NCBI GenBank assembly: GCA_030704615.1 | Contig: CM060731.1 | Span: 3,038,001-3,102,000 of the forward strand | DNA from: Takakia lepidozioides | Lineage: Eukaryota > Plantae > Bryophyta | Length of the DNA stretch: 64,000 bases | Direction: 5' to 3' | Shown here: positions 30,701 through 64,000 of the stretch, piece after piece | How the letters are laid out: the number at the start of each line of letters is the position of its first letter | Numbering within the stretch: the first letter of the stretch is position 1 | Notes under the pieces: model-generated | What the model was told of the DNA's origin: nothing | Seen by the model: the letters and a program-made list of their open reading frames with translations, nothing else | The model's database searches: none | Translations under genes and position numbers: made by a program

Positions 30701-30961
30701 AACTGATATCAGACAACCTGATATGACTAGAGAGTCGTGGGAGTTAACCAAGAACCAAGAACCAAGAACCACAGGGACACTACGTAAATGTCACATGGTC
30801 TGACGAACCACAGAACTTGGAAGGAAGATAAGACTGACCTGTAGAAGTGTGGTGGCATAGGTGATGTAGTTGCGCATCTTCCCTTGCGTGGTAATGCGGA
30901 TTTCATTCTCACTGATTGGAGTCTCAGGCCGTGGCTTCTCCACCCTTTGATACCGATCCAT
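27753..30961 (-). CDS. Alba/RPP25-like DNA/RNA-binding protein with RGG tail, paralog 1 (8 coding exons)
   Basis: [41 protein letters not shown] | [27 protein letters not shown] | AGLHQNT..WEPLEEGL | [15 protein letters not shown] | YQPPLPADQ | RG-rich exons | GFRADGPMPESAGPGAV-stop. One G appears missing in the last exon. Confidence 0.92.
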
Positions 30962-33032: not shown

Positions 33033-33094
33033 TTAAACGAAAAGGAATCTCCTTGAAAGCCACTTTTCCGAAGTGGTGATGGGCACACACCTGT

Positions 33095-33990: not shown

Positions 33991-34171
33991 AACCGCACAA
34001 CAATTGCACATACGACCTCGGAAGTGAGTGTGGGTTCAATCCACCGATTGATGTCACAAAGGTCTTCACCTTCTTGCTGGAAGGCAGTAGCCCTTTGACG
34101 TAAGAGACACCATAATTTATGCTTCATAATTTACGCTTTCTTCAGGAGGCGTCATATATTATATATTATTA

Positions 34172-34386
34172 TTGCACAAGAGGGTGGGCCACATATCAAA
34201 AGAAAATTCAGGAGATTATATGTGTCCACGAGATGGTCCTGAATTTGGTATCATGAAATGTCGGGCATGCGAGGAGGCTAGCATAGGTGGGGGGAAGGGG
34301 CATAAGTTGCTCCACGATAGAAAGATAGGTTATTGTTACTCATGAAAAGAGTGGAGATCATAAAACAGCCCATTTACGTTGGCAAT
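34172..34386 (+). mobile_element. hAT transposase fragment, copy 2
   Basis: About 165 bp essentially identical to ~18223-18388, with a short internal deletion upstream. Confidence 0.55.
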
Positions 34387-42300: not shown

Positions 42301-45300
42301 ATCAGAAGAAAATATAAACCATCATCAAGTGGGTTAAACCAACTTCGGTCCGAGATGTACAATGTTTTCTAGGATTTGCAAATTTCTATAGAATCTTCAT
42401 TCAGGACTACTCCAAAATTGCTGCACCAATGACACGACTCACAGGGAAGGACAAATTTGTATGGGACGAGAAGGCTCCAAGCATTTCAAAGGCTGAAGCA
42501 GGCATTTACAACGGCTCCAATACTGGTACATGCAGACCCATCTAAACCATTCTTTTTGGAAGCAGATGCATCGGACTTTACACTTGGCGCGATACTCTCT
42601 CAATACGGTACAGATGGCCGACTTCACCCTGGTGGTTTTCGTTCTCGCAAATTTTCCGCTGCGGAGATCAATTATGAAATCCATGACAAAGAACTTCTAG
42701 CGATTATCGATGCTTTTGAGGAGTGGCATCATCTATTGGAGGGAGCTCAACATCAGGTCACTGTCTATACCGATCACAAAAATTTCGAGTATTTTATGAG
42801 TGTTCGTGTTTCGAATCGACGTCAAGTAAGATGGAGTATGTCACTAGCAAGGTTTGATTTTGTTATTACCTACCGTCCCGAACATCTTCAAGGAAAACTA
42901 GCTGCTCTTTCTCGACGATCATATCTTGCGCCAAAGGAAGGGGATGCAACTTTTGACCAACAGAAATCCATCATCTTGAAACCAGCAAATCTCCAATTGA
43001 ATATGCTATCCATGTCCACCTAAGACAATGCAGAGATCATCAAGGAGATTCGGGAAGCACTGAAGAGCACCAATTTGCTACGACACTACGAAGTCAACTA
43101 AATCGACCTCGAGACAACCCACATGTTACAAACGACTTCGAGTTCAAAGATGACTTACTTTATTTCAAGGGACTTCTCTATGTACCTCCAGGACCTACAC
43201 GACTTCGAATTCTTCAAACATGTCATGATCTTCCGGCTGCAGGACATTTCGGTTTCAACAAAACAATGGAATTGATATGCAGGGACTATTGGTGGCCGCA
43301 GATGTGGAAACTCGTGAAAGAATTTATAAAATCTTGCGACACGTGTGCTAGAGCGAAGGGACCACGACATCGACCTTACGGCCTTCTTCAACCATTACCC
43401 ATTCCCAAGGGTCCATGGTCGTCCGTGTCTATGGACTTTATTACGGACCTTCCAATCTCCAAGACCACCGATTCAATCCTTGTTATTGTAGATCGTTTTA
43501 CGAAGATGACACATTTCATTCCATGTAATAAGACGGTTACCGGCAAGGAAACTGCAAGACTCTTCCTCAATAATATCTACTGCATTCATGGACTCCCGAA
43601 GGACATCGTATCTGATCAAAGACCACAATTCATATCAAATTTCTGGAGGGGATTATTTCATATATTGGATACTAAGATCAACCTTTCTACAGCTAATCAT
43701 CCATAGACTGATGGTCAAACCGAACGTGTAAATCAGATTTTGGAGCAGTATCTTCGCTGTACGATAAATTATCATCAAGATAATTGGACGGACCTTTTGT
43801 CATTGGCTGAGTTTGCCTACAACAACACTATACATTCTTCAACCCAACAAACTCCATTTTTCTCCAATTATGGTCATCATCCTCGAGCAAACCTTTTCCA
43901 CATGAAGACTGTTGGAAGCCCTACTACAGAAAACCTTGCTACTCATCTTGCTACGATTCACAAAAAGCTTACATTCCACCTCGCAGAAGCTCAAAAACAA
44001 TACAAGGAGTATGCAGATCAACGTCGTCAACTCCAACCCCAGTTCAAGGTCGGAGATCGTGTATGGCTTCTTCGACAAGACATACAAACCTCGCGACCAT
44101 CAAGGAAGTTGGATTATCAACGCCTGGGCCCATTCAAAATTATTCGACAAATAAATCCGGTCAGTTTTCGGCTTGAACTCCTACGAAGTATGCGCATCCA
44201 TCCAGTCTTTCATGTTTTATTATTGGAGTTATATCATCCATCGAATATTCCAGGAAGAGTCTCCGTACCACCTTCACCAATCGAAGTCAATCAGGAAATT
44301 AAGTATGAAGTCGACGAAGTCCTAGATTCTCGCATCAAGTATAAACGTCTTGAGTATTTCGTACATTGGAAAGGCTACGACATCAGCGAATGAACGTGGG
44401 AACCTTCATCCAACCTCGCCAATGCATCTGACAAAGTCCAAGAGTTTCATCAACGATATCCAGCTAACCCCCGAGCTACACGTCAATAAGACGTCACAAC
44501 GATGATGTCAGCCAAGTTAGCTTCAAGGTGAAGACTCCACATTCAATGTACCTGATCCACGCTAAGGAGGGAGGAGCACCACACATCAGTATATATAGCT
44601 ACACTTCCAGCACTCTTGCATCTTGTATTGGCAGTATGGAGTCACATGAACCAGATGCATTGGAGTTGTCGCTTACCCAGCTACCAGATCAGCCGTTCCG
44701 ACTCTCACGACCTTCAACATCACGCCGACGCTCTCGAGACAATGGGCCACGAATGCGACACGTACTTCCTCATCTGAACCCCGTACGACGGCAAGTGGAG
44801 CCTACTCGAAGTCTGATAATTCTGTTGGAGGTTGAGGCTTCGGACCCAGAGGACAACGAAATCATGTTTGAAGGCAGCTTCGAAAATCAGAATGCTCAAA
44901 TCACTGCGTGGTCCCAAATTCGTTGGACACTATCGATGGTTGCAGGGACCTATAAATCATTTGAGTCAAGAACGAAGAGCCGAATACTTGGCATGTACCA
45001 TTCGCCGGATTTTGGATTTTCTTCAACTCTAAGCAAGTCCAAGATTTTACCGCTCCTCGATGAACTCGGCGCTAGAGGAGGGGGTGATGTCACGGACATA
45101 GTCCAGAAGAACTTACCAGGAGTAAATACCAGAAGTTATCAAGTTATCATGTTACCGGAAGTTACCATGACTTACCGTAATTTACCATGATCTACCATGA
45201 TTTACCATTACTTACCAAGTTTCCGAGAGTTTACCAAATTACCAAAAGTAACTTGGGAAACTGCTCAGGAAGCTTCATTTGGAGGAAACTTCTCCATCAA

Positions 45301-46582
45301 GATACCTCATTTGTTTAAGGAAGCTTCTCCATCAAGAAACCTTTGTTTAATCTTAGAAACTTCTCCAACAAGCAACCTCCATAGGGGAAGCTTCTTAGTT
45401 AAGCTTCTTAGTAGTCAGTATATATAGGAGGCGAGACTGGACACTCTTCAGTCTCGCCAACACCAGTTCAAGCTACTCTTGTTTCCAATATCTGGTACTC
45501 CAGTCCAGTTTCCAGCATTCCAGTATTCAAGTCGTGTTCCAATATCTTGTACTCTTGTTTATTGTCATAAAGATCGTCTTGATTTATATTTACTCATCGT
45601 GCATTTGGCCACGCCGACCTTGACTTCTTGTCTAGCCTTGTACCTCTAGTCTTATCTCTTGTTTGTGTTCAGTCATGTTCTCGTCCTTGACACCTACTGC
45701 ATGTCACCATACAACCAACTTGACAAGGGACCTCTCCATGAGGGTACAATACAACCTTCTAGTTACAAATTGGTATATGCATTACCTTAATAATCTCTGC
45801 AATCGTGACAGTCTTGTTAATAGCACGGCCCATGGCCTTGAGAACAATCTCAGATGTTCTTTTATCCTGCATGTCCAGAAGAAACTAAAAAATAACATAA
45901 GAAAGAATGATACAGTATAAGCTACCACTCCTATCAGCATTGACCAATTTTAATTGCAATAACAAGCCATAAAACAACTTATTGGATTACGTTAGGGCCG
46001 TTTCTAGTAACATGGTTTGTTCATTGCAGTGATAAAAAAAGGTTCAATGCTTTCAAGAAACGCGGAAGACCCTGAAATGTACAATACTATTATAACAACA
46101 AAGGACATGTTGACACCCGACAATCAAAGAAAGAGACAAGTCAGACAAAAGAAAGGGCATTGAAGTGATATAAGACAACCTGAAATTATGAGAAGAATCT
46201 ACAGAACACCGCACAAACTTTATAACCACCTATACAAAACCTAGTAGTGGAACTAAACGTGGTAGTGTTACTCTGATGCAAAGCTAAAAGGATGAACAGG
46301 TCTTGCACCAGAAGATGAGACTGGAAAGTTTTCTGGAAAGCCAGCATATAACTGAACTTTAAATGGAAGCAGATAATTATGAGGGAACAAAAACCGCTAG
46401 GATAGATTCAAGAGGAGCTATCTTCAACATCAAATAACACAAACAACAATTATAGTAACCTGTAGAAGCGTTGTGGCGTAGGTGATGTAGTTACGCATCT
46501 TCCTTTGCGTGGTGATACGGATCTTATTTTCGTCGATTTGCGTTTCGGGCCGTGGCTTCTCCATCCTTTGGTACCGATCCAT
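36361..46582 (-). CDS. Alba/RPP25-like paralog 2, TE-expanded intron 2, possibly pseudogenising
   Basis: Same exon series as paralog 1: [15 protein letters not shown] at 46582; exon 2 ~45868-45785; [10 protein letters not shown] ~38228; LETTRHVSM; YQPPL; RG exons; [17 protein letters not shown]-stop at 36361. The end of exon 3 is altered. Confidence 0.8.
38244..39095. mobile_element. AT-rich intronic insertion absent from Alba paralog 1; probable non-autonomous DNA element
   Basis: Sharp AT-rich block with a long poly-T. TGGACGTCA is repeated at 38259 and 38951. TAGGG...CCCTA are possible termini. No convincing TSD. Confidence 0.35.
39225..40309 (+). repeat. 5' LTR (begins TT instead of TG; contains a ~500-bp insertion)
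   Basis: Aligns with 45088-45692 except for ~39611-40111. Ends ...CCTTGACA. TATATATA at ~39535. Confidence 0.9.
45088..45692 (+). repeat. 3' LTR (TG...CA, ~605 bp)
   Basis: TGTCACGG...CCTTGACA, preceded by the PPT and followed by TSD CCTAC. Confidence 0.93.
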
Positions 46583-47689
46583 GCTCGATCCACAGGCTTC
46601 TCTCAGGTCTTTCAGATTTCTTACGCTCAAGAGAGTACCAAGTGCCGGACAAAGACGCTCCAGGTACTAATTTCAATGACACAAGATGCACTCTCTACCG
46701 AGTTTCTCATATAGACAAGTATATGAAACGAATGAGAAAAAATATCTAAAATGTTTCTTATTGAAACTACTCACAAAAGATAATGGTCAACCAAGAACCA
46801 AGATAGTCTTGTTAAAATGAGCAGTTTAAGTTGAATGCTTCAGAAGTTCAATGGCACAATGCTTGCAACTTGTCGAACACATGAATAGCCACCAACACAC
46901 AGGGGCAAATGTACACTCGGACAATCCACACAGACCAAATGCTAGAAAAACGTTGTCTAAAAAATATAACTCGATCAGAAAAAGGCACCAGAAGGATAAG
47001 GCGTGGAAGAACGGGTTCAAAGCAAGGGTACGGGAGAGCTGTAAAGCAAAAATCCCGATCACGAGAAACGTTACAAAATCTGATAAAAACCAAAGCCACC
47101 AACAAGAAGACAGATGTTGCACAATCTCACGTGCTCGGAAAAATTGGAGGGGAATTATCAACTGACAACAAAGAGACTCGCTGTGGAACTTGCAAAAAGA
47201 TTGGAGTAGCGCAAAACTAGAACCTGAAGATTTGGAGAAAGAGATAGAGAGCAAGAAAATGGTAACGGCAACAAAACAGATTGCAAGCGTGAATTGGTGA
47301 ATAAAATGTTAGTTGTTGCACGCTCGCTCTCCCAAGCTCTGCCCCGCCTGCCTTTGTCACAGGAAAGGAACATCACGCTCGCACTCCCGCACCCGCAGCC
47401 CTAGGCAACCACCTGCATGCATCCCCTCCCATCCCATCCCATACATGCACCCATCTTCTCGTACCATCCACTTATTCGTACCCGTTTTGGATGGATTATG
47501 CTTTATCCATCATTTTTTATGAGCGGGACTATCGGACAAGCAGACAAACACATTTGGAACACTTGGAAACAAGCTTCCCATGTCTAAAACACATCTTTGC
47601 ACTGTCATGGTTTTAGTCATGGTTAACTAGAATTACCTACTTCTAGTTAACTAGGACATTTTGGATATTTATATTTGTATTTTGTGTGT

Positions 47690-49396
47690 TGGGACTTCAT
47701 TTGGTCTCACATGCCAAGTGAGGTATCAAACCTCACTTGGGACATGGGGATGGGTTTTCCCCTTGTGAGTGTTGAGGAGGGCCAATCTTCTTGTAGTTGA
47801 GCCTCCATGAGCCTCTCCCACCTCCATAGCTCTAGGTATTGAGAAGGAGTGTGGTGAGGGCTTTGTAGGGTGGATTCCTTTAGCAAAGGTGCCCTTGGCT
47901 TGACTTAGTTTATGTGATTGAGTGGATTCATGAGTGGAGTGTTTCCATTGTGTGTTCACTTCCATTATCACTACAAGAAGATCACCTTATGCTTGTGAGT
48001 GCGGAGTGTAAGGATTAGTTTTAGCACTTGTGTTGGTGTACACCAAGGAGTGAGAGAGCTAGGAAAGCTCAAGTATCTCACAAGGCTTGCAAGATGTTGC
48101 ACAGAGGAGTGTTTTTGCATTGCATCAAAGAGGTGGAGAGCTCAAGGAGAGAGCTCTTGAGTTACAAGACTTTGCAGAGGTGGAGAGCTTAATGAGAGAG
48201 CTCTTGTATCACAAAGCTTGCATGGTTTTGCAAGGTAAGTGCTTGTTTGTGCACTAAGGGTTTGAGAGCTTGGAAAAGAGCTCTTGCATCACAAGAGAAG
48301 CGTCTTGTGTGTGGAGAAGATAAACACTAGGGTTTCAAGAGCAAGCTCTAGTACTTATTCATGGTGTGAAAGAGAAGCCAAAGAGCGGCACATGCTTGGG
48401 TTGGAAACACCATAGAAGGAGTACAACAAGGGTAGCTTGAGGAGCATTGAGTAGCTCAAGAGAAGCTAAGAAGTGGTTGTTCTATCCATGGTGAAATGAA
48501 GCCAAGTGGGGTTTCATTTGGTTGACAAACAAGCAAGCGAAGGCGGCGCTAGAAGGGAGTGCTTTTTGCTAGTTCTATGAGTTCTTTGATTGCTCTCGGT
48601 GAAGCAAGTGATTGACCAAGCAAGTGGCGCATGTGTGGAGCATGCTTTCCAAGTGTGGCTTCCAATTCAAGCTTGAGGAGAGCTAGAAGGTGAAGTGAGC
48701 AAGTTCATTCCTTGTGTATGAGGTGGTGTATGTTGTGGAAGAAAAACCAAGGAGCTACATAGGCTAGGGCTTGAAGACAACAAAAGCAACCACTTGTAGA
48801 GCATCAAGAAGCTCAAGATGACTCCAAAGGGAAGCATGTGGGTGAGAATTCTGTCCATGATGATGTGAAACCAAGCCTAGAGTATTGAAGAGCTTGGAGC
48901 ACATGTGGGAGATCATTGGAGGTGGTCTTCATGAAGAAAGAAGATTGTGGCTCACGGCATGCATAGCAACTTCAACCATACATTAGCATGTGACAAGACA
49001 AGGAAGAGGAAGGTCAAGCTCATGTATTCATTCCCTTTTTGCTTAAGTTTTGTGGTGGATGGTTGATCAAGCAAGTGATGCTTATGTGAAACATGCTCTT
49101 TAGGGCTTGTGACTTCAAGTTTGAGAAGATGAGCTCTTGAATAGAGGTGTGGATACACATTATGACGAATGAAGACAACACCTAGGTCAAGAGGTGGAAG
49201 TGTGTGTGACTAGCCCATGCAAGGGAAAGCACATGGAAGATGGCATACAAAAATTCAAATTCAAACAAGGCTTGGCGCTTGTCATTGGGCACATTAGCGT
49301 GCTATAAGTTCCAAGGAGATCAAGATGAACTTGTCAATTTGGGATGAATGCATTGCAAAGTAAGATAATGCAATCTTGCATGCATGTTAGGGGGGA
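47690..49396 (+). mobile_element. Strongly degenerate retroelement-like segment ending in a PPT-like run
   Basis: Purine-rich, CpG-poor, with GAGAGCTC repeats. TTAGGGGGGA at ~49387-49396. No recognisable protein domain. Confidence 0.3.
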
Positions 49397-49454
49397 AGAT
49401 ACCATGAAGAAGGTGTTTCTTACTATACTCTACAAACCCTAGTCTCCATACTCT

Positions 49455-49690
49455 TCAAGAAACTGAGTATGGGCTCCCTCTGCCCATCATACACTTTTAA
49501 GAACAGTGTATGGAACCCTCTGCCCAACATACACTTTTGTGAACAGTGTATGGGCCCCCTCTGCCCAACATACGTTTGTCTGAACAGTGTATGGGCTCCC
49601 TCTGCCCCACCATACTCTTTTGTGAACAGTGTATGGATACAAGTGGAGAGACTTTGCCTACCATACGTTTTCATTAAAAGAGTATGACAT
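49455..49690. repeat. ~41-bp tandem repeat (5-6 units), followed by TTTGGAGGAC(T) repeats to ~49940
   Basis: Units of the type GAACAGTGTATGGGCCCCCTCTGCCCAACATACACTTTTGT. Confidence 0.85.
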
Positions 49691-52624
49691 CTAGGGTGTA
49701 TCTGGAGGAGTATTGCCTTTGGAGGATCTTTGGGGGGTCCCTTTGAGGAGCTTTTGTAAGACACTTGAAGAGCTCTTGAAGGGGTGTTTGGAGGACTGTT
49801 TGGAGGACTATTGGAGGTCTTTGAAGACCAATATTTGGCAAACATTTGGAGCCTTTGGAGGGCTATTTGGAGGACTATTTTGGGGTCCTTGGAGGCTAAT
49901 ATTTGGCGAGAGCCTTAGTGAGATTATTTGAGAGACCTTGGAAGGTAGTTCTGTTTGTTGGTCATGAGCAAGAGCGTTTAGAGATAGGGGGGGACTAGTG
50001 GGATGAGAGCATTCTGGGATTAGGAATTGCTTTAGTCTCTCTTCCCCGTAGTCTTCCACCCTTTATGTACGCCAAAACCTTTCCATAGGTGGAGGCAAGA
50101 GTCAGTCCGGGGTTGGGCTGGGGTGTCCTTGCAGGAGCGACACAATTGTGGAGTGTTTTTTTTGGTGTGGGGGAGTTACTGTCTTGATTTTCTTGTGTTT
50201 GGATCCCCCCCACACCTGCATGCTTGACTGTGCGCCATGTCAGTTTTGTGTGTTCGCCTGTTTTCATAGGAGGTTGGTCCAGATTTGATCACCGGCCAAT
50301 CCTAGAGCATGTTGTCGGTGGTGAGGCTGGGGTGATGACCAATCAGACCACCATTGTTTCTCTTATGGTGAGGCTGGGTTGATGACCAGCAGACCGTATG
50401 AGTGCTTGCGGTGGATGCATGTGCAGGTTTATGTTACGAACCTAGTAGTCTAAGCCATAAGCCGCAACAGGTTCTCTACCCGGTTACCTTGTGGAAAGGG
50501 GGGTTAGAGACAGGTTTACAACATGTGTGGTTGTGAGTTTTCATCACGGAGGTGCCACCAGTTGCTGAGGAGAGTGCCGGTACGAGCACCAGCGATACTA
50601 GTGGGTATACAAGACGAGGTGTGCGGTTTAGGCCACCTTCACCTTCAGTGCCTTCTGAGGAGGTTCAGACTCAGAGTTATGAGGATTCTCGCTGAGGGTG
50701 CAAGCCGTTTCCGTGCCATTGTTATGGGATACAATGGAGAAAATGTATGGAGCTACCAAGGGGCCACGTCGGTACTCCAGAGCTGTGGGCACCATCGAGC
50801 TTGATGATTTCATACAGGAGTTTGATAGTTGGTGTGATTTGCAGCAGATGCACAATCCACAACTGTTTACGCCTTTTATGGCATGGAAGGGGCTGTTTCA
50901 GCACCTTGAGGGGCCGCCCATGGATGACTACCATGAGTTTAGGCGGGGATATGAGGTGGAGATTGAGGAATGGCGGGTGTATTGGTCACCTGACTATGTC
51001 TCTATCACTAGAGGCACAAGGGTAGTGGTGACACCGGCAGCTACACTGGCAACTACTGCAAGCAGCAGTGGGACGTCAAGTGGAACAGGAGCTGGGAAGT
51101 CCACCCAAGCTCCTACTGCAGCACCAACACCCATGCCTGCCTTTAACCCAGTTGTGGAGTTCTTCGAGGAGTTGAGAAGAAACTACCAAGGGATAAGGAC
51201 AGAGAAGTTGCGGAGCTTGCAAGAGTTCCAACGAAGGTCTACTGAGAGTTTGAGGGAGGCTTACACTCGCATGAGACGCTTGATAAACGTAACCCAAAGG
51301 GTTACAAAAGCTCAAGCAATCCAGTTCTGGTATGGGATCCTGGACAAGGAGCTGAGGAGAAGGGTGCGGGATGCAACTCTCCTACAAGTGGACCAACCCA
51401 CCTTAGCAAATGTGTTTTTGCTAGCAGAGCGGATAGAGCTCAATATGGTGGAGGAGCAAGTGGTCATGGTGGGGTTTGGTAAGGAGACACAACGAAGTGG
51501 GGCTCCTGGCCAACAACAACCACTACCCCAACGTGCTCAAGGCAACAAGGGGGCTCAGACGAAGCCCAGGGAAGGGCCAAGATGATCTCAATTGCAGAGG
51601 TCACTTCCTTCATTCTCAGGCCAACAACAGTCGGGTGTGACATGTTGGGATTGTGGAGGACCCCATGTTAAGAGAGATTGCCCGGAGAGAGGCAAAGGGC
51701 CGGCACAGGCACAACCTACACAACTACAATGTGGGCATTTGTGGCAAGTATGGGCATGAAGAGGCCCATTGTTATGACTTGCATCCTGAGCTACGGCTAG
51801 GCAGCTCCAAGGGAACAATGGTGGGCGAGGATGAGGCAATGTAGTCCAGAGAGGTAGAGGAGGCAGAGGTCGTAACCAAAACCAAGGAGCACAGGGTCAA
51901 GGTCAAGGTCATGACCAAGGCATGGTGGATAGGCTTGCCCAGCTAGAGCAACGTCTTGCTACCATGGCCACTACTCATGTTGCGCCAGCTCCAAGGCCTG
52001 AGGTTCAAGCCCCATCTGCACAACCTCCTATGCCTAGGGAAGACCAGATTGGTATGGGCTTTATGTGTGGAGCCGCACTTACAGGACCATTGCATGTGGA
52101 CTCTGCAGCTGCTGGTCATCGAGCCGCAACGCGTGCTCTGAGCCAAGAGGAGCGAAGCAGATGTGGATTTTGATCCACAAAGAGGGGAAGCAAGTCGACG
52201 ACAAGGCTTCCACAGTCTTTTACATTGGCTGAGACAATGCCAACTACGCCATCGATGGTACCCGCTCGCCCAAGTGTGTCAGAGGTAGAGCCACGAGTGC
52301 AGAGTTGGTGTAGCCCGAGAAAAGCCAGTGGGTGGTGCTGCAAAGCAAGGTGCAACCAGTACATTGTTGGGGGCGGGTACGGCAATTTGCCAAGCTCCAT
52401 TGTTTTCTGCCACGATAATTGCAATGTCGGGATGCGGCCAGCTGCAGTGTTTAGACTGGCAGCTAGACTCTGTGAGAGTGGTGATGATCGGCACTATCTG
52501 CGGGGATAGCGGATCAGGTGCAGTGCATGGATGCCCTAGATTCAAGGGTGAAGACAGCCACAGCTGCGCCATGGCAAGCGGCGGCAGCTGCAAGGTTGCA
52601 AGAGTTGCCAGCTAGACCAGCATT

Positions 52625-53180
52625 GAGCGTAGTATGGGACTCCTGGGGTAGTCCTGGTGGACAATAGGATGGTGTGTTTCAGTTGGGTGGCACGGCCGGG
52701 AGGAGGTATAGGCCACTGCAGGCTTGGGTCTTACAGAGGCGGATTTGGAGCCTTGCCCTTTCCAAATTCAAACATCTTTGGGCGGTTCAGAGAAGGCACG
52801 AGGGATTACACGCCATGAGCTCTTCATGCGATTGCAGCCAGATCATCCTACAGATGGTCTGTAATGAGAGCTAAAGCCATTGTTACGGACGCGATGTCTT
52901 ATGATGAGCGTAGTATGGTGACTCCTGGGGTAGTCCTGGTGGACAATCAGATGTGTGTTTCAGTTGGTGCCCGGCCGAGGAGGTATAGGCCACTGCAGGC
53001 TTGGGTCTTACGAGGCGGATTTGGAGCCTTGCCCTTTCCAAATTCAAAACATCTTTGGGCGGTTCAGAGAAGCACGAGGGATTCACGCCATGAGCTCTTC
53101 ATTCGATTGCAGCCAGATCATCCTACAGAGGCTCTGTCATGAGAGCTAAAGCCATTGTTACGGACGCGATGTCTTATGAT
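52625..53180 (+). repeat. ~280-bp tandem duplication of the protease region
   Basis: GAGCGTAGTATGG...GTTACGGACGCGATGTCTTATGAT at ~52625-52905 and ~52906-53180. Confidence 0.9.
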
Positions 53181-53534
53181 GTACTTGTTGTGGGGCAGTG
53201 TTATACCCGATGGGCTTTACTTTGGACTTTGGGAGGAAACGGCATCCTATAGGCCGGAATGGCAGTCAAGGGATGGGCCGGCGTGCACTGCTCTCAGTGC
53301 GGTTTATTGGGAATGTAGCGTGGATCATATGAACATGATGCCCACATTGGCTGCATTCTCAGGGGTAGTGGCTGGGGTGGTGAGCTCTTGGAGGGAAATG
53401 CCATGTCAAATGATAGGCCACCACTGATGAGGATGAACAATTGCATACAAGGGGGGAGTTCAGTGACATCACCTGGACCTCCTCAGTTAGCTCCTTTGGA
53501 TACAGTGCCCATTACCTGGCAACCACCTGCCTCA

Positions 53535-54500
53535 GGGATTTGTTTGCTAGACCTGTTTGGAGGTATGAGCATTGGGCTTGCAGGAGTGTTGCAAGCTAGG
53601 ATTAAAGTACGCAAGTACTTGTATGTGGAGAAGGATGAGATAGCTTGGCGTATTTCTATGCGCCACATCGCCTTGCTCACACACCGGTATCCTGGATTGT
53701 TGCCTCTCTCAGCAATTCAAGGGTATCAAAAGGCCTTGCCATCAGACATTACCTTGCTGGGGGCGGATGATTTGGACCGGCATGGTGCCATTGACTTGGT
53801 GATAGCTGGATGGCCTTGCCAAAGACACTCTCCCGCAAGTCATGGGAACGGCTTGCATGATGCACGATCGCATTTGTGTTTTGGGAGATGTTGAGAGTGT
53901 TGCGTGACTTGCAGACGAGGCAAGTGCAACCTCTAGCCTATATCTTGGAGAATGTTCCTCTTATGAGGCACTCTCGGGCTAGGGTTATGGCCAGTGTGCA
54001 TCAGGTGTGGTCTTGGATTGGATCGGCGATGCTATTGGATGCAGCAACGGTGGGATCACGAACGTATCGACCTCGATTGTGGTGAACCAATCTTGCACCA
54101 CCAGAGCTGCTCAAGAGAGCATACGATTCCATTCAACGGCCACCCAATCTCACAGTTGAGGGCATTTTGGACCAAGGGAGGCAACCACAGAGGGTGCGAC
54201 ATGATGACCGTCCACCTCTAGCAGTGGTAAATCGAGTGGGGCAGCCACGTGCGGCGGCCTTGCCTACGCTCATGAGCTTTCCCTCGTCTCATGCTTTTCG
54301 AGACAATAGTCCTGGGTGATTTGGGACAGTGTGCTACAGCAATTGGTGGAGCCCAATGCAGATGAACGAGAGTGGGCAATGGGATTTGCCACGGGCACTA
54401 CAGCTGTGCCAGCTTTGTCAGAGGCATCACGCCGACATGTGTTGGGTCAAGCAATGGATCTAAATTGCTTGACATGGGTCATTGGCTTGTGCATGGCTGA
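53535..54500 (+). pseudogene. DNMT3-like C5 cytosine methyltransferase domain within pol (frameshifted)
   Basis: Motif I LDLFGG (53547); II VEKD; III SDI; IV GWPCQ (53808); LFWEMLRVL; VI ENV (53948); VIII RPRLW(stop)TN; ERE.AMGF..T; X RRHVLGQAMD. Confidence 0.9.
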
Positions 54501-57109
54501 GCAACGGAGGTTGCAGACAGTGGTGGCTACTTCTGCACTCCCATTGGTATTGTATCCCCTCTGCCAACCGGGGACGGTCGAGGCAGTGAGTGGGGGCGAA
54601 CACAGGATCATGGGGTGCCAACAACACCATGGCAGATGTGGGATGAGATGCGGAAAGAGAGAGTCCTTGGATCTCTCAAGCAGCAATATGAGGAGTGGGG
54701 GAGAGCCATACACTGAGGATCAGTTGGAGGCCAAGGTGGCCAATGTTTTTAAGAGGTTGAGAATGTTTCTTCCCCAGAGGATGTTCTCAAGTGGGTTATG
54801 GCAGAGCAAGTGGAGGCTACACCACAGTCAGATTGGGCGGACAAGGCCCAAGAGGTTGCTATCTAGCAACCAAAGGATTCGTCTCCTACCCCCAAGCCTA
54901 ATGTACCCAAGGTTGCAGTCACTGAGGACAATTGGGAACCAGATGTTGGACCTACAGTCACCGGAGGAGAGAGACGGAGTATTGATTTGTAAGTTGATTT
55001 GGCAAGTGACACGCCATCTTTCGAAGGCCCTAACGTTATAGTGACATGGAAGTCATTGATCCAGTACGGAATATGAGTTGCAAAGCTGATGTGGAGTTGT
55101 CAGGCGGGAGTAGCCTCGGCAACGCTGATACCAGCTAAGAAGGATATCTATGGCAATTGGACATAAAGAAGGATGTGTGCGGACTATCGTCCTGTGAACC
55201 GTCAGGGGGGGACTAAGTCCGAGATATGCCATGCCAACTCCAGAGGAAATCTTTGATGCCATTGGGCATGCAAAGGTGTTTAACACATTGTGACTTGCGA
55301 TACGGTTACCAACCAGTTGCCAATAAAAAGAGGCTGACAAGCAAAAGACGACATTCTGGGGGATTGACCAACATGGAAAAGATTGCTTGTACCAATGGCG
55401 CTTCCTACCGTTTGGGTTGAAGAATGCTCCTGCAAAGTTTCAGAGGGTTATGGATAGGATTCTAGTGGGGCTGACTTTGCCCGGTGTACATTGATGACAT
55501 CATCGTCTTAGTGCTACGGTTGAGGAGCATGAGAGACACCTTCAGGTGTGTTTGAGCGCTTGAGAGCGCATGGGTGAAATTGCAACCCTGGGAAGTGCAA
55601 GTTCTTCCACAACCAGATTGAGTATCTGGGCCACATGATATACCCTGGAGAATTGGGTGTTCAAAAGACGAAGTGGAGGCCATTGCACGCAGTCCACGCC
55701 CCATAGATGTTAGCAGAGTTCGTGCTTTCATGGGGTGGCAAACTACTATCGACGGTTTGTCAAGGGATTTAGCAGCATTGCAAAGGCTCTTCTAAGTGAC
55801 CAAGGTGGGTCAGGAGTGGCAGTGGAGGAGGAGCAGGAGGAGCCTTTGAGGAACTCAAGGCTCACTGACTTCTGCACCTAATCTGAGGCGGCCTATTCGG
55901 GGGGCGGCCTTTCCAGCTACATACGGATTGGAGTATACTGGGGATGGAGTAGTGCTCACACAGGTGGATGATGAGGGAGAGAGTCGTAGTGGCATTTGCT
56001 AGCCGCTCAAACAATGAGGCCGAGGCAAAGTATAGTTCTATGAAGGGGAGTGTCTAGCTGCGGTATGGGCAGTGGCACATTTCAGATGCTACCTCTATAA
56101 CAATCTCTTCACCTTGTCACGGATCACCGCCCCAGAAGTGGTTGATGGAGTCAGACAAGCTACATGGAAGCTTGCACGGTGGGCACTATGCTTCAAGAAT
56201 ACGACTTTCAGGTGGTGCATCGAGCCGGTATTGTCAATCGGGATGCAGATGGATTGAGTCGTAATCCATGCACGAGCGAGATGATGATACTGGAGCTCGT
56301 GGCATGGTGAGATGGATGAGGAGATGGTGCAGGATGCGCAGCATTGTCTTTTTGAGCATCCTAGCAATGGGAGCTCAAGCTGGTCCATCCATAACATTGG
56401 TCATGTAGATGGTGGGCATGACGATCCGGAGATCAGTGAGGGCTTGGTGGTGGAAGGATGTGCATGAAGATGCAGCAGTGTGGCCTACTTCGTACTAGAG
56501 AGACAACAGCCAGTGTGACTGCTAAGGAGAGAGATCGGATCCACAACGAGCCAAGAGGTTCAAGTGGGAGGGGACTCAGACTCCGAGTATATGAGGAGGA
56601 CGAGTGAGGATTGTGCCTCATCCAACACAACGAGACGATTGGTACGCCATGCCCATGAGGAGTTGGGACATTTGGGTGCGGCGCACTCATAGTTTGCTGC
56701 AAGGACAGTACTGGTGGCGGGGCATGCACACAGATGTGCAACAGTTAGTGGCAAGATGCGTGGTGTGTGATAGAGTGTGAGCTTCTTTCAATGCACCTAC
56801 TCAACCATTGCATCCTTTACCTATTATGGGTTTGGGCTATCATTGGAGTCTTGACTTCGCAGCGCATTGCCACTAACGATTCGCCCATAACAAGTATGTG
56901 CTGGTGATGGTGGAACATTTCTCCAAGTGGATTGAACTAGTGGCATTGCCTGACAAGACAAGTGAGGGGGCTGCGTATGCATTCTTAGATCGAGTACTTA
57001 GCCAATTTGGTGCTTCCGCCGAAGTACTCACAGACCAGGGGAGAGAGTTCTTGGGGGAGTTTCAGGCTTTGTGTAAGCAAGCCTTGATAGATCACCGCAC
57101 TACTTCTTG

Positions 57110-60100
57110 CACTACAAGAGATGAGCGTTTTTAGGACTACAGCTTTGGCGGAGTCATAAAAACTGCACTAGGTAGATGACTACAGAGCGCTAAAATGCAT
57201 TGCAGTCATAGTTTTATGACTTTGTAGTAATGGATATCACTACATGACTCCGGAAAGTTAGGGAGCATTGGTCAAACATTGTTGACCATGATGACATGGA
57301 TGGTTTATATGACTAGTGTGATATGTTTGACTACACGTGGACGACGTTTCATGGAATCTTATGACTCCATGACTGAAGATGGTTTCACAGCTCTATTTAT
57401 ACGACTACATCACTACACGTGTCATTTTGAAAGCACATATAATGCAAATAAGGTTGTCCATTAGGTTTAAAAAAGTTAAAAAAAGGCTAATAGGTTGCCC
57501 ATTAGGGTAATCGTGAACAGAAAAGAGGGGCTGGGACTTGCGTTTTTTTGTCTCCTGCGCCACACCACATAGCCAAGGGATGGAACGCGATGATAGAGGA
57601 TATGCAGGGGCGTGGGATGGAGGCGTTGAGCAAATGATGCACGAAGGAGAAGATGAGAAGGAGAGACGAGACGAGGAGAAGTGAGCTCGCCGTTCTTGGG
57701 AGGGTCAGCTTGGTCTTAGCATGCGTGTTCAATCTCCGACTACTCAGCTACGCCGTAGTGGTTCGATCTCACAGACCAATCCGACATTACCTGACTACAG
57801 ACACAAGCAGCCAACACAAGAGGTCCTTTAGGTGATGGTCAGTCAAATCCTCCATGGGTCAGGACAGGTCAAGGACAATGTGGTAGGGTACCTTCTTCTT
57901 CAACCTATTTCAGCCTTGTTGCCCTCTCATCAGACTCGGCCGCAAGATGCATATTGAATTTTGTAAGTTAGGTCGTTGGGTAGATCTGTGGTGGTTTGGA
58001 GTGACTTTGGCAAGTTACTGCCAGTGTGTGGCAGCATGAAGTATCCAAAAATATATAATAGAGGTGAGGAGAAGCTTTGGGGTGAACACTTTCCGACCCC
58101 AGTCAATGGTGGGACAATGGAGACAAAAAGGCGAATGCCTGTTGGACTACAGAGAGAAGCAGATGCATTTCAGATTGTGATAAGTAGGGTTGGGGTGTTT
58201 TGGGGAGAGAACTCCACACCAGTATGGTTGGGGTGTTTGCTGGTAGAATTCTAGGTTGTCACAGGCATGGATAGCTGAAGGAGCAGGGATAGTGTGGGTC
58301 CAGATTCATGAGGGCTGGATACAAGCTCCACATTAAATGATTCCCTGTGGAAGGATAGCTACAAGAAACCTACATGGGTAGATGGTCAACTGGAAGCGGC
58401 AGCAGCAGCGGCACAATTGATAAGGTCAGGCACGTCTACTGAAGGCACCTCCTTCAGCACATTTCACCCTGTTTTTCCCTCTTATCCATTTCTTACGAAC
58501 TGTCTTCTCTTATCTGTTTGTCTGCCCAGTCTTCAGTGAATGCGTCAAGGCTTTTGTGTTTTGGCTTCTTCCTCGTTTTTGTCACCCTCTCCCATGAATA
58601 TCTCTGGTTGGCGCTCAAACCCTGTTGAGCTGTAGATGTTGTCCATGCCAATGCATTCTTCTTCACCAAATCCATGTTTTTGCCCTAAATCCTTGATGTC
58701 TTGGCTGGATTTCTGCAGAATAGGCATCCCATCCCATCCCCTATTTTGGCCTTCTTTGCACTTTCCCGTGTCAACATGTTGATGTGGGGTGTTGTTGTAG
58801 TCTTATTGGAGTGTGATCACTTATATGGTATATCTCGTCCAACTCATCCAGTGCCTCCAGCTCATTATGAGTGAACTGACATGATACTTGTGCTATTGGT
58901 TGCATCATGTACTCCGTGCTTGGCAATGGGTAAGCTTCTCCTCCTTCCACGTACTCATTGATCACTGCAAAAGGTACTCCATACATCTTCCCTTGAGGTC
59001 CTGCCCATTTTTTGCTTCTGTGATTGTTTCAGCTTTGTTGAAAGTTTGCCAAGACCCATGTTGGGTTAGTGTGTGACGACTGTGTCTCATGTTATTACAG
59101 ATTTTAGACAGTGTTCTTTGTTTGGGCCTTCTAATGCCTTGTCTGATGGACTCAGGTTTATCAAAATCAACTTGTATCCACTCTGCTTCCATGTTGTTGT
59201 TGTCAGCAGCTTGTTCTTTTGCCAGCTGAACCCCGACAGGGCCTGGGTCTTCCCTTCTGCCCACATCAGAGCATTTCGCAATGTCTGTAGTTGCTTCATC
59301 CTTCCTCAACTCCGCCCTCTCTTTGGCAGGTTGTGCACCTTCACCACCTTTGTTGTTTTTTTATTTGCACATGGTATCTACTGCTTGCGTATCCTCATTG
59401 TAGTATTGAATATGCCCTGTAGGCATTGGCCTTACAAAGCCATTGTGCTCACTCTGGGTTTGGGTCATAGAACTTGGATGTCATTGTCAGCTGCTAGCAG
59501 CAAGGCGAGGATGTATGCATGATTTGTGCAGGGGCATGGATAGCTAAAGGAGCAGGGATAGATGTGTGGGTCCACATTCATCCAAGAGGGCCGGATTTCA
59601 AGCTCCATATTACCTATGATTCCCTGTGGAAGGATAGGTACAAGAAACCCGCATGGGTAGATGGTCAACTGGAAGCCACAGTAGCAGCGGCACAATTGAT
59701 CAAATCAGGCACTGTTAATCAAGGCACCTTCTTCAACACATTTCACCCTGTTTTTCCCTCTTGTCAAATCGGCCGTAAGTATTGCACTGTTTAACAGGGT
59801 CCTTGATTCTAGTAGCACCAGAACAAACTACTATTACAACAATTCAGCCCATGTGTGGGCTTGCTTATTTTTTGCTTACTGGACCTTTTCAGGCATGGAT
59901 TTTTGGACCTTGTGGCCTTGAGGTGTCCATTGGGACATTGGTCTCATTTGGATTTTTGTAATATAATTTACAGGGCGTGTATTTCCGTGTACTTGTTGTC
60001 GTGCGCATACATATCGCTACACAACTACATCGCTGTCCAAAACCACACAACATATGTGCACGCCACACACTAGTATATCACTAGTCTACCACTAGTCCAA

Positions 60101-60215
60101 CCACTAGTCCAACCACTAGGCTACAACTAGTCAGTCACTAGGCTGCCACTGTGCTGCCCACTATGGCAGTCACTAGTCCACACAATGATAAAGAAGAAGA
60201 ATACAAGCATAAGCT
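57110..60215. mobile_element. CACTA (En/Spm)-like element, left end only
   Basis: Integrase codons stop abruptly at CACTACAAGAG (57110), followed by repeated (T)GACTAC subterminal motifs to ~57420. Internal ~220-bp duplication (58263-58482 and 59533-59762); CACTAGT repeats at 60065-60180. No matching right TIR seen, so the extent is uncertain. Confidence 0.6.
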
Positions 60216-63200
60216 CACAAAGCTCCGAACCCTAGGACGATATCCTCCACCACGTATAGTGGCATACCTCAACGTATCACGGTGCTGTGCAATGGCAAGG
60301 TTCTCAAAAGCCATGGGCATGACTTTCTTGAACAACTCTACACGCTGATCACATGCACGTACCCACATGTCTGGATCGTCAAGGTTAAGGACTTGAGCAG
60401 TGTCCCTACGAATGGCTGCAGGCAAATCCGGCTCTCGGCCAAAGAGAATGAAATATGGTGAGAAGGAGGCAAGTGATGCTTGTTTGCTGAACCTGTAGCC
60501 CATGGCTAACCAATGAACCTGAAGATCCCAATCTCCTAGGTGTCCCTTCTGCAAGCCATACTTGCGCAAACCCCTCTTCACCGTCTGAACAACTCTCTCT
60601 GCTAAGCCATCGGCCTCAGGATGATCACGAGAAGTGGTGCGGTGGTCTATCAAGGCTTTATCACACAAAGCCTGAAACTCCCCCAAGAACTCTCTCCCTT
60701 GGTCCGTGAGTACCTCAGCTGGAGCACCAAATCGGCTAAGCACACGATCCAAGAATGCATACGCAGCCCCCTCACTAGCCTTGTCAGGCAATGGAACCAA
60801 CTCAATCCACTTGGAGAAGTGCTCCACCATCACCAACACATATCTGTGGTGGCGCATAGTAAGTGGCAACGGTCCTGCGAAGTCAAGACTCCACCTGTAG
60901 CCCAATCCCATGATTGGTAAAGGATGCAACTGTGGTGTAGGGGCGTTGAATGAAGCACGCACCCTGTCACACACCATGCACCTAGCCACGAACTATTGCA
61001 CCTCTGTATGCATACCACGCCACCAATACTGCCCCTGCAGTAAACTGTGAGTGCGTCGCACTCCAAAATGCCCCAACTCCTCATGGGCATGCCGCACTAA
61101 CCGTGCACGCTGTGTGGGGTGAGGCACAATCCTCACCCGACCATCCTCCCACACTCGAAGTAGGTGTATCCCCTCCCACTTGAACCTCTTGGCTCGTTGC
61201 AGGATCCGATCCCTCTCCTTGGCAGTCACAGTGGCTGCCGTGTCTCCCGTGCGGAGGTAGTCCAACACAGCCGAATCCTCATGTATATCTCTGGCACCAC
61301 CTGGCTCATCACTAGCCTCATGGTCCTCAGACACTCCGTCTACAGTCATCCCTGTTGTAGGTCCAACCTGACCTCCCAATGCCAAGATACACAAAAATGC
61401 AGATGCGTGCCATCCCGACACCATCTCCTCGTCCGTCTCACCATGCCACCGAGCTCCAGTGTCATCCTGCTGGCTCATGCATGGATTGCGACTCAATCCA
61501 CCACATCCCGATTGACCAAACCCGGTCGATGCACAACCTGAAAGTCATACTCCTCGAGTATGAGTGCCCACCGTGCAAGCTTCCCCGTAAGCTTGTCTGA
61601 CTCCATCAACCACTTGTTGGTGATCCGTGACAAGGGTGAAAAGATTGCCGTATAGATAGCACCTGAAGTGTGCCACGGCCCACACTGTAGCTAAGCACTC
61701 TCCCTCATATGAGCTGTACTTAGCCTCTGCGGCGTTGTTCGAGCGGCTAGCATAAGCCACTACGAACTCTCTTCCCTCATCATCCACTTGTGTGAGCACC
61801 GCTCCAAGCCCCAGCAAGCTCCAATCCGTATGCAGCTGAAAGGGACGCCCCCTGATAGGTCGTCTCAGGATAGGCGCCGAGGTCAACCTCGCCTTGAGCT
61901 CTTGAAAAGCTTGTTCCTGCTCATCTTCCCACTGCCACTCCTGGTCCACCTTGGTCAGCTTGGTTAGAGCCTTTGCAATGGTACTAAATCCCTTGACAAA
62001 CCGTCTATAATAGTTTGCCAACCCCATGAAAGCTCGAACTTGGCTCACATCCGTGGGGCGTGGAATTTGTGCAATGGCCTCTACCTTAGTCTGCTGTACC
62101 CCCAATCCTCCAGGATATATCATGTGACCCAGATACTCAATCTGGTGTGGAAAACTTGCACTTCCCGGATGCAACTTCAATCCGTGCGCTCTCAAGCGCT
62201 CCAATACCACTTGAAGGTGTCTCTCATGCTCCTCCATTGTAACACTAAAGATGATGATGTCATCTATGTAGCACCAAGCAAAGTCCACCCCTGCTAGAAT
62301 CCTATCCATGACTCTCTGAAACTCTGCCGCCACTAATATATGCAATCCTTGCCGTGCTCATTGATCCCCCAGAATGCCGTCTTCTGCTTGTCCGCCTCCT
62401 TGATTGGCAACTGGTGATATCCGGATCGTAAATCCAAAGTGCTAAAGGCCTTAGCATGCCCGATGGCATCAAAGATCTCCTCTGGTGTTGGCATGGCATA
62501 CTTATCGGACTTGGTCTGACGATTTACAGGCCGGTAATCACCGCACATACGTCTCTCCGTCCAATTGCCATAGACATCCTTCTTGGCTGGCATCACTGTG
62601 GCTGAAGCATACTCTCCACCAGAGAGCTCCACCAAACCTGCCTCCCAGAGATCTTGAGTCCTCATCTGAATCAAAGACCTCTCCATGTCACTGTATCTAT
62701 AGGGTCTCCGAAAGATTGGCGTGTCAGTGGCCAACTCAATACAGATCTCTTGACCCTTCAGTGCTCCCAAGTCCTTCAAACTGAAGGCAAAGCAATTCTT
62801 GTAAGCCCTCAGGAACCGCCATATACGTCGTCTCTCTCCTCCGGTGACAATGGGTCCAATGTCAGGCTCCCAATTGTCCTCCGTAACTGCAACCTTAAGT
62901 CCAGTGGGCTTAGAGGTAGAGGACGCGTCCAGTGGTTGCTATGTTGCAACCTCTTGAGCAGTACTCCCTGCCTGCTCAATCAATGACAAAGCCTCATCCT
63001 GCCCTATCATCTCATCCTTGAGGACCTCCTCAACCCGAGAAGAATCCCCAACCTCATCCATCACAGCCGCCTTGGCGGCCAACTCCCTCTGAACCTCGAG
63101 CACCTCCCACGTGTGCCATGGATGCATGCACCCCGTGGTCCTCACATGCTCGCCCCCACTCACTGCCTGTACCGTCTTGGTAGGCAGAGAGACCATCGAG

Positions 63201-64000
63201 GGAAGTGTACTCCGCACTCTGCGTTGCTTAGCCAGAGCCAAGCTGATAATCCAGGTCAAGCAATTGAGATCCATTGCTTGCCCCAACACTTGACGACGTG
63301 ATGCCTCAGAAAGAGACGACACCGCCGTGGTACCAGTGGCAAAACCCATTGCCTGCTCACGCTCGTCAGCATTAGGCTCCACTAACTGCTGCAACTGAGC
63401 ATCCCACAGGAGGCCAGGTCCACTATCCCGGAAAGCATGCGATCCTGGGAAGCTGAGCAGTGTAGGTAATGCTGCTCGTGGTTCACCCACCTTGTTGACC
63501 ACTGCCAAAGGCGAATGGTCATCGTGTCTCACACATTGAGACTGCCTCCCTGTGTCCAGAATGCTATCCACTGTGAGATGTGCTGGCCGCTGCACCCCAC
63601 CAAATGCACGCTTGAGCAGTGTGGGTGGCATCAAGTTAGTCCACCATAGCCGTGGACAATGAGCCCGTGACCCCACTGTAGCGGCATCTAGCAACACTGC
63701 TGACCCAAGCTACGACCGGACTTGATGCACACTGGCCATCACCCTGGCCCGAGAATCGCCCATCAGTGGCACATTCTCCAAGATGTATGCTGGAGATACA
63801 GCTTGATGAAGCTGCAAGTGGCGCAAAACCCGCACCATCTCCCAAAACAGACCCAACCTCGAGTCTCGCAATCCATTGCCATGCCCGGCTGATGAATGCC
63901 CTTGGCAGGGCCAACCTGCCACTACCAGATCAATGGAGCCAACCCGCGCCAAATCCTGCGCCCCCAGCAACGAAATGTCTGCTGGCAAGGCCTGCTGATA
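60216..64000 (-). mobile_element. Ty3/gypsy retrotransposon carrying a DNMT3-like methyltransferase, copy 2 (better preserved; 5' part beyond the window)
   Basis: ORFs 63710-63988 and 62939-63697 (DNMT: DI, GWPCQGHS, ENV, LWWTN, LGQAMD); 62333-62779 and 61545-62345 (RT YIDD, RH LHTDWS..YEGECLA); 60993-61496 and 60138-60989 (IN HHCC, WSLDFAGP, TDQGREF, GLAER). Confidence 0.95.

What the first reader, a model, noticed from the sequence alone, without database searches (positions are those of the whole stretch)
50520..64000. Ty3/gypsy family encoding its own DNMT3-like cytosine methyltransferase inside pol, in an apparent land-plant genome
Seen: two diverged copies both have a C5-MTase domain directly upstream of RT-RNaseH-IN. 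Copy 1 shows the full order gag-PR-DNMT-RT-RH-IN, with motifs I, II, III, IV (GWPCQ), VI (ENV), VIII and X in unpermuted order. Wording resembles DNMT3 (DLVIAGWPC, LFWE..R.L, ENV, LDA..V..AHR.R.WW.NL, E.E..MGF...T, R..LG), not the circularly permuted plant DRM. Presence at the same position in two diverged copies indicates a fixed part of a family that transposed, not a one-off capture. Known: DNMT-bearing retrotransposons have been reported in Symbiodinium and charophyte algae (de Mendoza et al. 2018). I do not know of a description in land plants, but cannot search. Inference: the enzyme could be released from the polyprotein and methylate the element's own cDNA or integration site, as self-silencing or camouflage.
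Basis: partly seen in the sequence, partly recalled or inferred. Interest (0 to 1): 0.92.

Follow-up and report, generated by a model that had tools for sequence, protein, structure and literature searches.

The report
Moss retrotransposon carrying its own methyltransferase
Two broken copies of a jumping gene of mosses and liverworts carry a DNMT3-like DNA methyltransferase at the end of the capsid-protease reading frame, before a conserved stop codon that is likely read through to make reverse transcriptase, so the enzyme would be made in bulk and likely marks the element's own new DNA copies; such elements were described in an alga but not in land plants in the papers searched.

Summary
Two dead, diverged Ty3/gypsy copies carry an unpermuted DNMT3-like C5-methyltransferase between protease and RT. 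The host is a bryophyte (nearest named gene: Sphagnum, 74-75%). The same family has named gene models in Marchantia, Calypogeia and Sphagnum.

One correction: the DNMT is not in the RT reading frame. It ends a Gag-PR-DNMT ORF1, followed by an in-frame stop and then RT-RH-INT-PHD. Both window copies read TAG-CAA-CCA there, 49 of 51 Sphagnum-like loci have a stop, and an intact relative only 46% identical reads TAG-CAA-TCA. This is the CAR-YYA readthrough context, so the DNMT would be made at capsid level (inferred).

Sphagnum-like copies have split ends (A-internal-B or A-internal-B-A-B), 4-bp target duplications and a palindromic B|A junction.

The closest known element is KnitGypsy-Dnmt3 of Klebsormidium (split repeats, DNMT reported in the RT ORF, no activity in yeast). 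Enzyme activity, readthrough and self-methylation are untested. This scan noted the bryophyte occurrence twice before on other DNA; its look-ups showed no note of the stop or the ends. Verdict: new variant of a known kind, testable in Marchantia.

The parts
50668..51738 (+). copy 1 gag (Retrotrans_gag, zinc-knuckle region), broken
   Evidence: tblastn of natural ORF P0193, 55% identity; Pfam PF03732 E 9e-5
52712..53308 (+). copy 1 aspartic protease remnants, with a ~280-bp tandem duplication (52624-52906 / 52905-53181)
   Evidence: the homologous region of intact relatives hits Asp_protease_2
53538..54510 (+). copy 1 DNMT3-like C5-methyltransferase, unpermuted, in three frame pieces
54864..54872 (+). 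copy 1 in-frame TAG followed by CAA CCA (CAR-YYA context) at the ORF1/ORF2 boundary
54900..57107 (+). copy 1 RT-RNaseH-integrase, many frameshifts, cut at 57110 inside the integrase core
60219..62878 (-). copy 2 RT-RNaseH-integrase, ends before the PHD finger
62933..62941 (-). copy 2 in-frame TAG followed by CAA CCA at the ORF1/ORF2 boundary
   Evidence: no majority variant listed at these places in four runs
63218..64000 (-). copy 2 DNMT3-like C5-methyltransferase (runs off the window); one internal stop at 63712-63710 that is private to this copy
50279..50307 (+). non-coding leader motif shared with the distant intact element L082 (26 of 29 letters)

Best explanation
This is a Ty3/gypsy-type retrotransposon family of bryophytes whose first reading frame is Gag-protease-DNMT3-like methyltransferase, closed by a conserved in-frame stop that ribosomes likely read through now and then to make RT-RNaseH-integrase-PHD, so the methyltransferase would be made at capsid level, would be cut free in the particle and likely methylates the element's own new cDNA. 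SHOWN: domain order, DNMT3-like fold, the stop and its CAR-YYA context, purifying selection between families, split ends and 4-bp target duplications in the Sphagnum-like relatives. INFERRED: readthrough (about 0.75), catalytic activity (about 0.7), cDNA as substrate (about 0.5), and integration by the DDE integrase at the palindromic B|A junction, perhaps of a circular cDNA (about 0.4). The likely benefit is that new insertions arrive already marked, which limits self-expression or damage to the host.
For: Order gag-PR-DNMT-RT-RH-INT recurs across fetched loci; 47 of 83 hold the DNMT end and the RT start within 700 nt on one strand. Junction codon: 49 of 51 aligned Sphagnum-like loci are stops (30 TAG, 19 TAA; 1 GAG, 1 TAC; none CAG or CAA), and 45 of 51 are followed by CAACCC. 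At two conserved Gln codons in the DNMT only 11 of 81 and 15 of 60 rows are stops among the variants shown, so deamination does not explain it. Both window copies read TAG CAA CCA although their dS is about 1.9. L082 (46% identical, intact 1162-aa ORF1 and 1047-aa ORF2 with PHD) reads TAG CAA TCA. Marchantia, Calypogeia-cluster and many unnamed ORFs of 1230-1450 aa stop 48-166 aa after the DNMT. CAR-YYA alone directs readthrough in TMV, and Gag:Pol is about 20:1 (PMC2194720, passages). DNMT3-like: best PDB sequence hits are DNMT3A/B/C (E 2e-8); a model of the L082 domain (pLDDT 89) hits DNMT3A at E 7e-19. dN/dS copy 1 vs copy 2: DNMT 0.09 over 238 codons, RT 0.19. Ends TGTCATG...CACGACA with 4-bp duplications, 9 exact and 3 one-off of 12 (two are the same site). 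The junction CACGACA-GC-TGTCAYG lies about 115 nt after a polypurine tract in Sphagnum-like loci and in L082.
Against: No activity, readthrough or particle data exist. The Klebsormidium enzyme gave no methylation in yeast, which the authors call inconclusive. Among the closely related Sphagnum-like copies the DNMT is the least constrained domain (median dN/dS 0.63; PR 0.58, INT 0.49, gag 0.40, RT 0.37, RH 0.36). The Sphagnum-like context CAA CCC misses the last A of CAR-YYA and is followed by an ATG. CpG observed/expected of the window copies (0.48, 0.53) equals host gene regions (0.52-0.53), and Sphagnum-like copies (0.54) are less depleted than neighbouring retroelements (0.18-0.33). More distant relatives have DNMT and RT in one ORF (P0236, P0237, P0253) or DNMT between RH and INT, so the stop is not needed in the whole group. 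Many of the 51 loci are the same insertion seen in several metagenomes. The termini were not found in the window itself.
Confidence: 0.6

Rival explanations
1. Same anatomy, but RT-RH-INT is made from a spliced or separately started RNA, or by re-initiation, not by readthrough. The DNMT would still be made with Gag.
For: Sphagnum-like copies have an ATG two codons after the stop. Several Marchantia and Sphagnum gene models join DNMT to RT by predicted introns (P0006, P0007, P0013, P0015). For Candida Tca2 an in-frame stop gave no detectable readthrough in baker's yeast and the junction acted as a promoter (PMC2194720, passages).
Against: The ATG is absent from both window copies and from L082. 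The GT..AG pair around the stop in the window copies spans 64 nt, which breaks the frame (read). The full CAR-YYA is kept across saturated synonymous distance.
Confidence: 0.2
2. The DNMT domain acts on host or invading DNA, or as a DNA-binding or structural part, and not on the element's cDNA. In some lineages it may be decaying.
For: No yeast activity for the Klebsormidium enzyme; relaxed dN/dS within the Sphagnum-like set and no CpG signature. An anti-viral role for transposon methylases was proposed in PMC6338049 (passages).
Against: Catalytic PC and ENV motifs are kept in most copies and in relatives under 50% identical; dN/dS 0.09 between the window copies.
Confidence: 0.17
3. The split ends arise without a circular intermediate. 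The cDNA is linear with two extra terminal bases, and the A-internal-B form is a deletion by recombination between the two B repeats.
For: The A|B joint is nearly constant in 8 of 8 B-A-B copies, which suggests templating rather than fresh end-joining; 15 of 23 outer 3' ends have a single B.
Against: The polypurine tract lies before B1, not before A2, and the integrated ends are the two halves of one conserved palindrome. No tRNA-type or self-priming site was found after A1.
Confidence: 0.45
4. A one-off capture, a nested insertion or an assembly artefact.
For: Copy 1 is full of indels.
Against: Same position in dozens of loci and several named species; a single 5-kb contig of another study spans RT start to DNMT (record 11).
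Confidence: 0.01

Closest known systems
KnitGypsy-Dnmt3 of Klebsormidium nitens (de Mendoza et al. 2018, PMC5890265; abstract, passages, one 10,000-character part of the main text and passages of the peer-review file read; Fig. 4c and the main supplement not seen)
   Same: Gypsy domains with an unpermuted, intronless Dnmt3-like domain under purifying selection; DIRS-like split repeats (A-coding-B-A-B).
   Different: Host is a land plant. The DNMT is reported in the same ORF as RT and RNase H, whereas here a conserved stop separates them. Readthrough context, 4-bp duplication, palindromic junction and PHD finger are not mentioned in the text read. No K. nitens sequence was available to align.
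SymbioDIRS-Dnmt3, SymbioLINE-Dnmt (PMC5890265) and EpiLTRs (10.64898/2026.05.21.726589, passages)
   Same: Retrotransposon-borne C5-methyltransferase; SymbioDIRS-Dnmt3 methylates CG de novo in yeast.
   Different: Tyrosine recombinase or LINE machinery, or a DNMT4-related domain with DAM and chromodomain; other hosts.
Stop-separated retroelements and viruses: MuLV gag-pol, soybean SIRE1, Candida Tca2, TMV CAR-YYA signal (PMC2194720 and PMC3441728, passages)
   Same: In-frame stop that sets the ratio of two products; CAR-YYA context.
   Different: None has a DNA methyltransferase on the abundant side of the stop in the passages read.
Host plant DNMT3 (PpDNMT3a/b; Yaari et al. 2019, PMC6453930, passages)
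   Same: Unpermuted DNMT3-type catalytic domain.
   Different: Host genes carry DUF3444, which no Pfam scan here found, and are not within Gag-PR ORFs.

Membership tests
Ty3/gypsy LTR retrotransposons | Order gag-PR-RT-RH-INT with a DDE integrase | tested here: met
Ty3/gypsy LTR retrotransposons | Two full direct LTRs flanking the coding region | tested here: not met
   Sphagnum-like relatives are A-internal-B or A-internal-B-A-B; ends not found in the window copies
Ty3/gypsy LTR retrotransposons | TG...CA ends, target duplication, polypurine tract | tested here: met
   4-bp duplication in 12 of 12 (9 exact), tract before B1; shown in relatives, not in the window
Ty3/gypsy LTR retrotransposons | tRNA primer-binding site after the 5' repeat | tested here: not met
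   no TGG next to the A1 end in 4 of 4 loci checked; no self-priming complement in the one locus checked
DNMT3-type C5-methyltransferase | Unpermuted motif order with catalytic PC and ENV; DNMT3 fold | tested here: met
   (fold tested on relative L082)
DNMT3-type C5-methyltransferase | De novo cytosine methylation activity | not testable with these tools
   needs an assay
KnitGypsy-Dnmt3 | Gypsy domains plus Dnmt3-like domain under purifying selection | tested here: met
   (0.09 between window copies; weaker, 0.63, within the Sphagnum-like set)
KnitGypsy-Dnmt3 | DIRS-like split repeats A-coding-B-A-B | tested here: met
   8 of 23 outer 3' ends in relatives; paper legend
KnitGypsy-Dnmt3 | DNMT in the same ORF as RT and RNase H | tested here: not met
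   in-frame stop against the authors' statement
KnitGypsy-Dnmt3 | Same clade by DNMT and RT phylogeny | not testable with these tools
   no named Klebsormidium sequence; the tree has no such row
Plant DRM | Circularly permuted motif order | tested here: not met
DIRS/Ngaro tyrosine-recombinase retrotransposons | Tyrosine recombinase in place of a DDE integrase | tested here: not met
   rve integrase and target duplications

The most novel reading that the evidence does not exclude
A bryophyte retrotransposon loads its particles with a DNMT3 at capsid stoichiometry through a leaky stop, methylates its cDNA before integration and inserts through a palindromic circle junction with a DDE integrase. 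When derepressed in Marchantia, these element-borne enzymes add to the strong non-CG hypermethylation of transposons reported in Mpmet mutants (10.1101/363937, passages).
Probability: 0.2. Interest if true: 0.92.

Novelty: new variant of a known kind. Interest (0 to 1): 0.72.

Why it matters
What retrotransposon-borne DNA methyltransferases do has been open since 2018, and the known hosts are hard to work with. One opinion paper states that such elements are absent from land plants such as tracheophytes (PMC6338049). Full-length Gag-PR-DNMT ORFs are annotated as hypothetical genes in Marchantia polymorpha, a genetic model with methylation mutants, so the question becomes directly testable. The stop places the enzyme on the abundant side of the Gag:Pol switch, which predicts a particle-borne enzyme. 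The split ends mean that standard two-LTR finders would miss the family, which may explain why it is absent from the plant LTR survey read here (PMC6317226: no occurrence of methyltransferase, PHD, Marchantia or Sphagnum).

Tried and rejected
No whole genome is held for the window, so family size and DNMT-less siblings in the host could not be counted. All locus searches used the DNMT as bait and cannot show members that lack it.

The short read lay across the junction listed no variants at all, not even those seen, so it is uninformative. No RNA holder was listed; run X12 is only guessed to be RNA.

RNA folding 3' of the stop gave no shared structure (z -0.9, 1.0, -2.5, -0.2, 0.0). CpG and CHG depletion were inconclusive.

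IMG/VR gave 1 weak DNMT hit. The 19 exact matches to the junction palindrome there encode none of the element's domains (0 of 19) and are taken as chance.

No Pfam domain was found in six frames of 47600-50600 or 57100-60250. A possible 5' end of copy 1 at 47603 is unconfirmed. The careful tree did not finish; the quick tree has no host DNMT3 or DRM rows and leaves out intron-joined gene models.

Literature searches found no paper describing the family in bryophytes, its stop or its ends; six Marchantia gene ids gave 0 papers. Subscription journals, Repbase and the main supplement of PMC5890265 were not visible. Later papers from the same lab say 'streptophytes' while citing the 2018 work.
Full report
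Observation. The region holds two tail-to-tail copies of one Gypsy-type element (inverted similarity 70-88%). Copy 1 (+) runs gag, protease, C5-methyltransferase, RT, RNase H, integrase from 50668 to 57107. Copy 2 (-) enters at the window edge inside the methyltransferase and runs to 60219. Pfam DNA_methylase scores E 6e-13 in copy 2 and 3e-4 in a piece of copy 1. Both copies are dead. In a DNA run that may be the window's source, 16,704 contigs lay on 1.3 kb of copy 2, two thirds of them 95% alike or more, which points to a very abundant family but is no copy number; the internal stop of copy 2 is private to it.

Host. An ELF4-like gene in the window is closest to two clusters whose named members are Sphagnum (74-75%), then to Riccia and Marchantia (63-65%). 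The host is a bryophyte, likely a moss, and not a charophyte alga.

Range. The DNMT region finds named proteins of Marchantia polymorpha, Calypogeia fissa and Sphagnum (18 hits; 62), and more distant ones in Closterium, Cymbomonas and Monoraphidium. Marchantia has several 1280-1281-aa gene models that read Gag-PR-DNMT and end there. No vascular plant, Physcomitrium or Klebsormidium name appeared, but these searches are length-limited and most hits are unnamed. A metagenome scan kept the best 80 of 110 relatives; 79 resemble the named Sphagnum proteins (compare). A genome scan gave L082, an intact element in a contig labelled as a cyanobacterium and probably mis-binned. The order gag-PR-DNMT-RT-RH-INT recurs throughout. 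The bait was the DNMT, so members without it were not sought.

The enzyme. The motifs are unpermuted. The L082 domain's best PDB sequence hits are DNMT3A/B/C (E 2e-8), ahead of HaeIII and HhaI, with no DRM among 42 hits. Its model (pLDDT 89) matches DNMT3A at E 7e-19, TM 0.83 by target length. In a quick tree the window copies fall in a clade with Marchantia, the Calypogeia cluster and the Sphagnum-like copies (SH-aLRT 99), inside a 34-row clade of stop-type ORFs (96) (no host DNMT3 rows, careful search unfinished). dN/dS between the two window copies is 0.09 for the DNMT (238 codons, dS 1.86, near saturation), 0.19 for RT and 0.18 for INT. Against this, within the Sphagnum-like set the DNMT has the highest median (0.63, against 0.37 for RT), which mixes decay after insertion with possible relaxation.

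The stop. Both window copies have TAG CAA CCA in frame between DNMT and RT. The motif occurs 8 times in the window against 9.5 expected, so it is its position that counts. Of 51 Sphagnum-like loci aligned across the junction, 49 have a stop and none has CAG or CAA; 45 continue CAACCC (several are the same insertion seen twice). Conserved Gln codons nearby are stops in only 11 of 81 and 15 of 60 rows. L082 has a 1162-aa ORF1, TAG CAA TCA, and a 1047-aa RT-RH-INT-PHD ORF2; L074 reads TAG TAG CCA. In one search no variant at the stop was among the 40 best-supported rows, although neighbours at 62931 and 62944 were, so most copies laid keep it; 90 rows were not shown. CAR-YYA alone directs readthrough in TMV, and retroelements need about 20 Gag per Pol (PMC2194720, passages; PMC3441728, passages). 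I infer readthrough, which puts the protease and the DNMT on the abundant side. More distant relatives fuse DNMT to RT or place it between RH and INT (22 and 52 proteins, the first count including intron-joined gene models), so the stop is clade-specific.

The ends. Sphagnum-like copies begin TGTCATG and end CACGACA, with 4-bp duplications in 12 of 12 loci that hold both ends (9 exact; other lengths 0 exact). In the plant survey read, 93.4% of elements have 5 bp and 6.2% have 4 bp (PMC6317226, passages). Eight of 23 outer 3' ends are B-A-B (A about 337 bp, B about 115 bp) and 15 have a single B. The inner B|A junction is a palindrome with a 2-nt spacer that integrated ends lack, and the same palindrome stands about 115 nt after a polypurine tract in L082. 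This fits a B+A LTR whose integration site has moved to the inner junction, perhaps on a circle; a linear route plus B-B recombination is about as likely. None of this was seen in the window, where both 3' ends are cut.

Mechanism. Most likely the Gag-PR-DNMT polyprotein builds the particle, the protease frees the DNMT, rare readthrough supplies RT and integrase, and the DNMT methylates the new cDNA so that insertions arrive marked; the PHD finger may steer the integrase to chromatin. The anatomy is shown; each functional step is inferred. CpG depletion does not support or exclude self-methylation, and the Klebsormidium enzyme was inactive in yeast.

Known systems. KnitGypsy-Dnmt3 shares the Dnmt3-like domain and the split repeats, so common descent is probable, but its DNMT is reported in the RT ORF and no sequence could be compared. 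I therefore say this works like KnitGypsy-Dnmt3 and do not file it as a member. Ten literature searches found no description in bryophytes. PMC6338049 (first part and passages) says such elements are absent from land plants such as tracheophytes. PMC12344493 and 10.64898/2026.05.21.726589 (passages) say 'streptophytes'. PMC11982613, PMC7466625 and 10.64898/2026.09.17.752431 (passages) held nothing relevant. The main supplement of PMC5890265 could not be read and may bear on domain order and host range.

Earlier notes. Two findings of this scan on other genomes report the same bryophyte element; a look-up for split repeats and a leaky stop returned nothing. These are not independent evidence.

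Verdict. Real, and a new variant of a known kind; interest 0.72.

Noticed in passing
window 57110: Copy 1 is cut by a sequence that begins CACTACAAGA with short subterminal repeats, like a CACTA transposon end (motif recalled). No matching other end was found beyond 44000 and no Pfam hit in 57100-60250.
   Followed up: partly
window 39227-45692: A separate Gypsy element with ordinary direct repeats 95-97% alike (39374/45258, 40111/45494) and a chromodomain-like integrase end (recalled motif). Its CpG observed/expected is 0.99, far above the DNMT copies and host regions.
   Followed up: partly
window 27700-38300 and 45779-46600: Duplicated Alba-like genes with RGG-rich ends, two copies about 8.4 kb apart plus a 5' fragment of a third (family name recalled).
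   Followed up: no
window 50279-50307; L082:8502-8530: Leader motif shared by copy 1 and L082, a possible hairpin with a palindromic loop that could be a dimerisation or packaging signal. The exact pattern occurs in 1 of 102 loci.
   Followed up: partly
L082 (9285 nt, GTDB contig CADCWO010000201.1): An intact eukaryotic DNMT3-Gypsy element with a 127-nt terminal overlap sits in a genome labelled as an uncultured cyanobacterium, probably a mis-binned collapsed repeat.
   Followed up: partly
proteins P0018, P0238-P0255: A second architecture, RT-RH-DNMT-INT-PHD, forms its own group (14 rows, SH-aLRT 82) that includes Monoraphidium and Cymbomonas proteins, so DNMT3-like Gypsy elements probably reach chlorophytes too; 244 clusters at E <= 1e-30.
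   Followed up: partly
proteins P0179-P0181, P0184 (Marchantia Mp_Vg gene models): Several family copies, two of them with full-length ORF1, lie on the Marchantia male V chromosome.
   Followed up: no
window 58337-58486 and 59616-59765: A 150-nt direct repeat (89%) flanks about 1.1 kb between the two copies, with a short acidic ORF on the minus strand.
   Followed up: no
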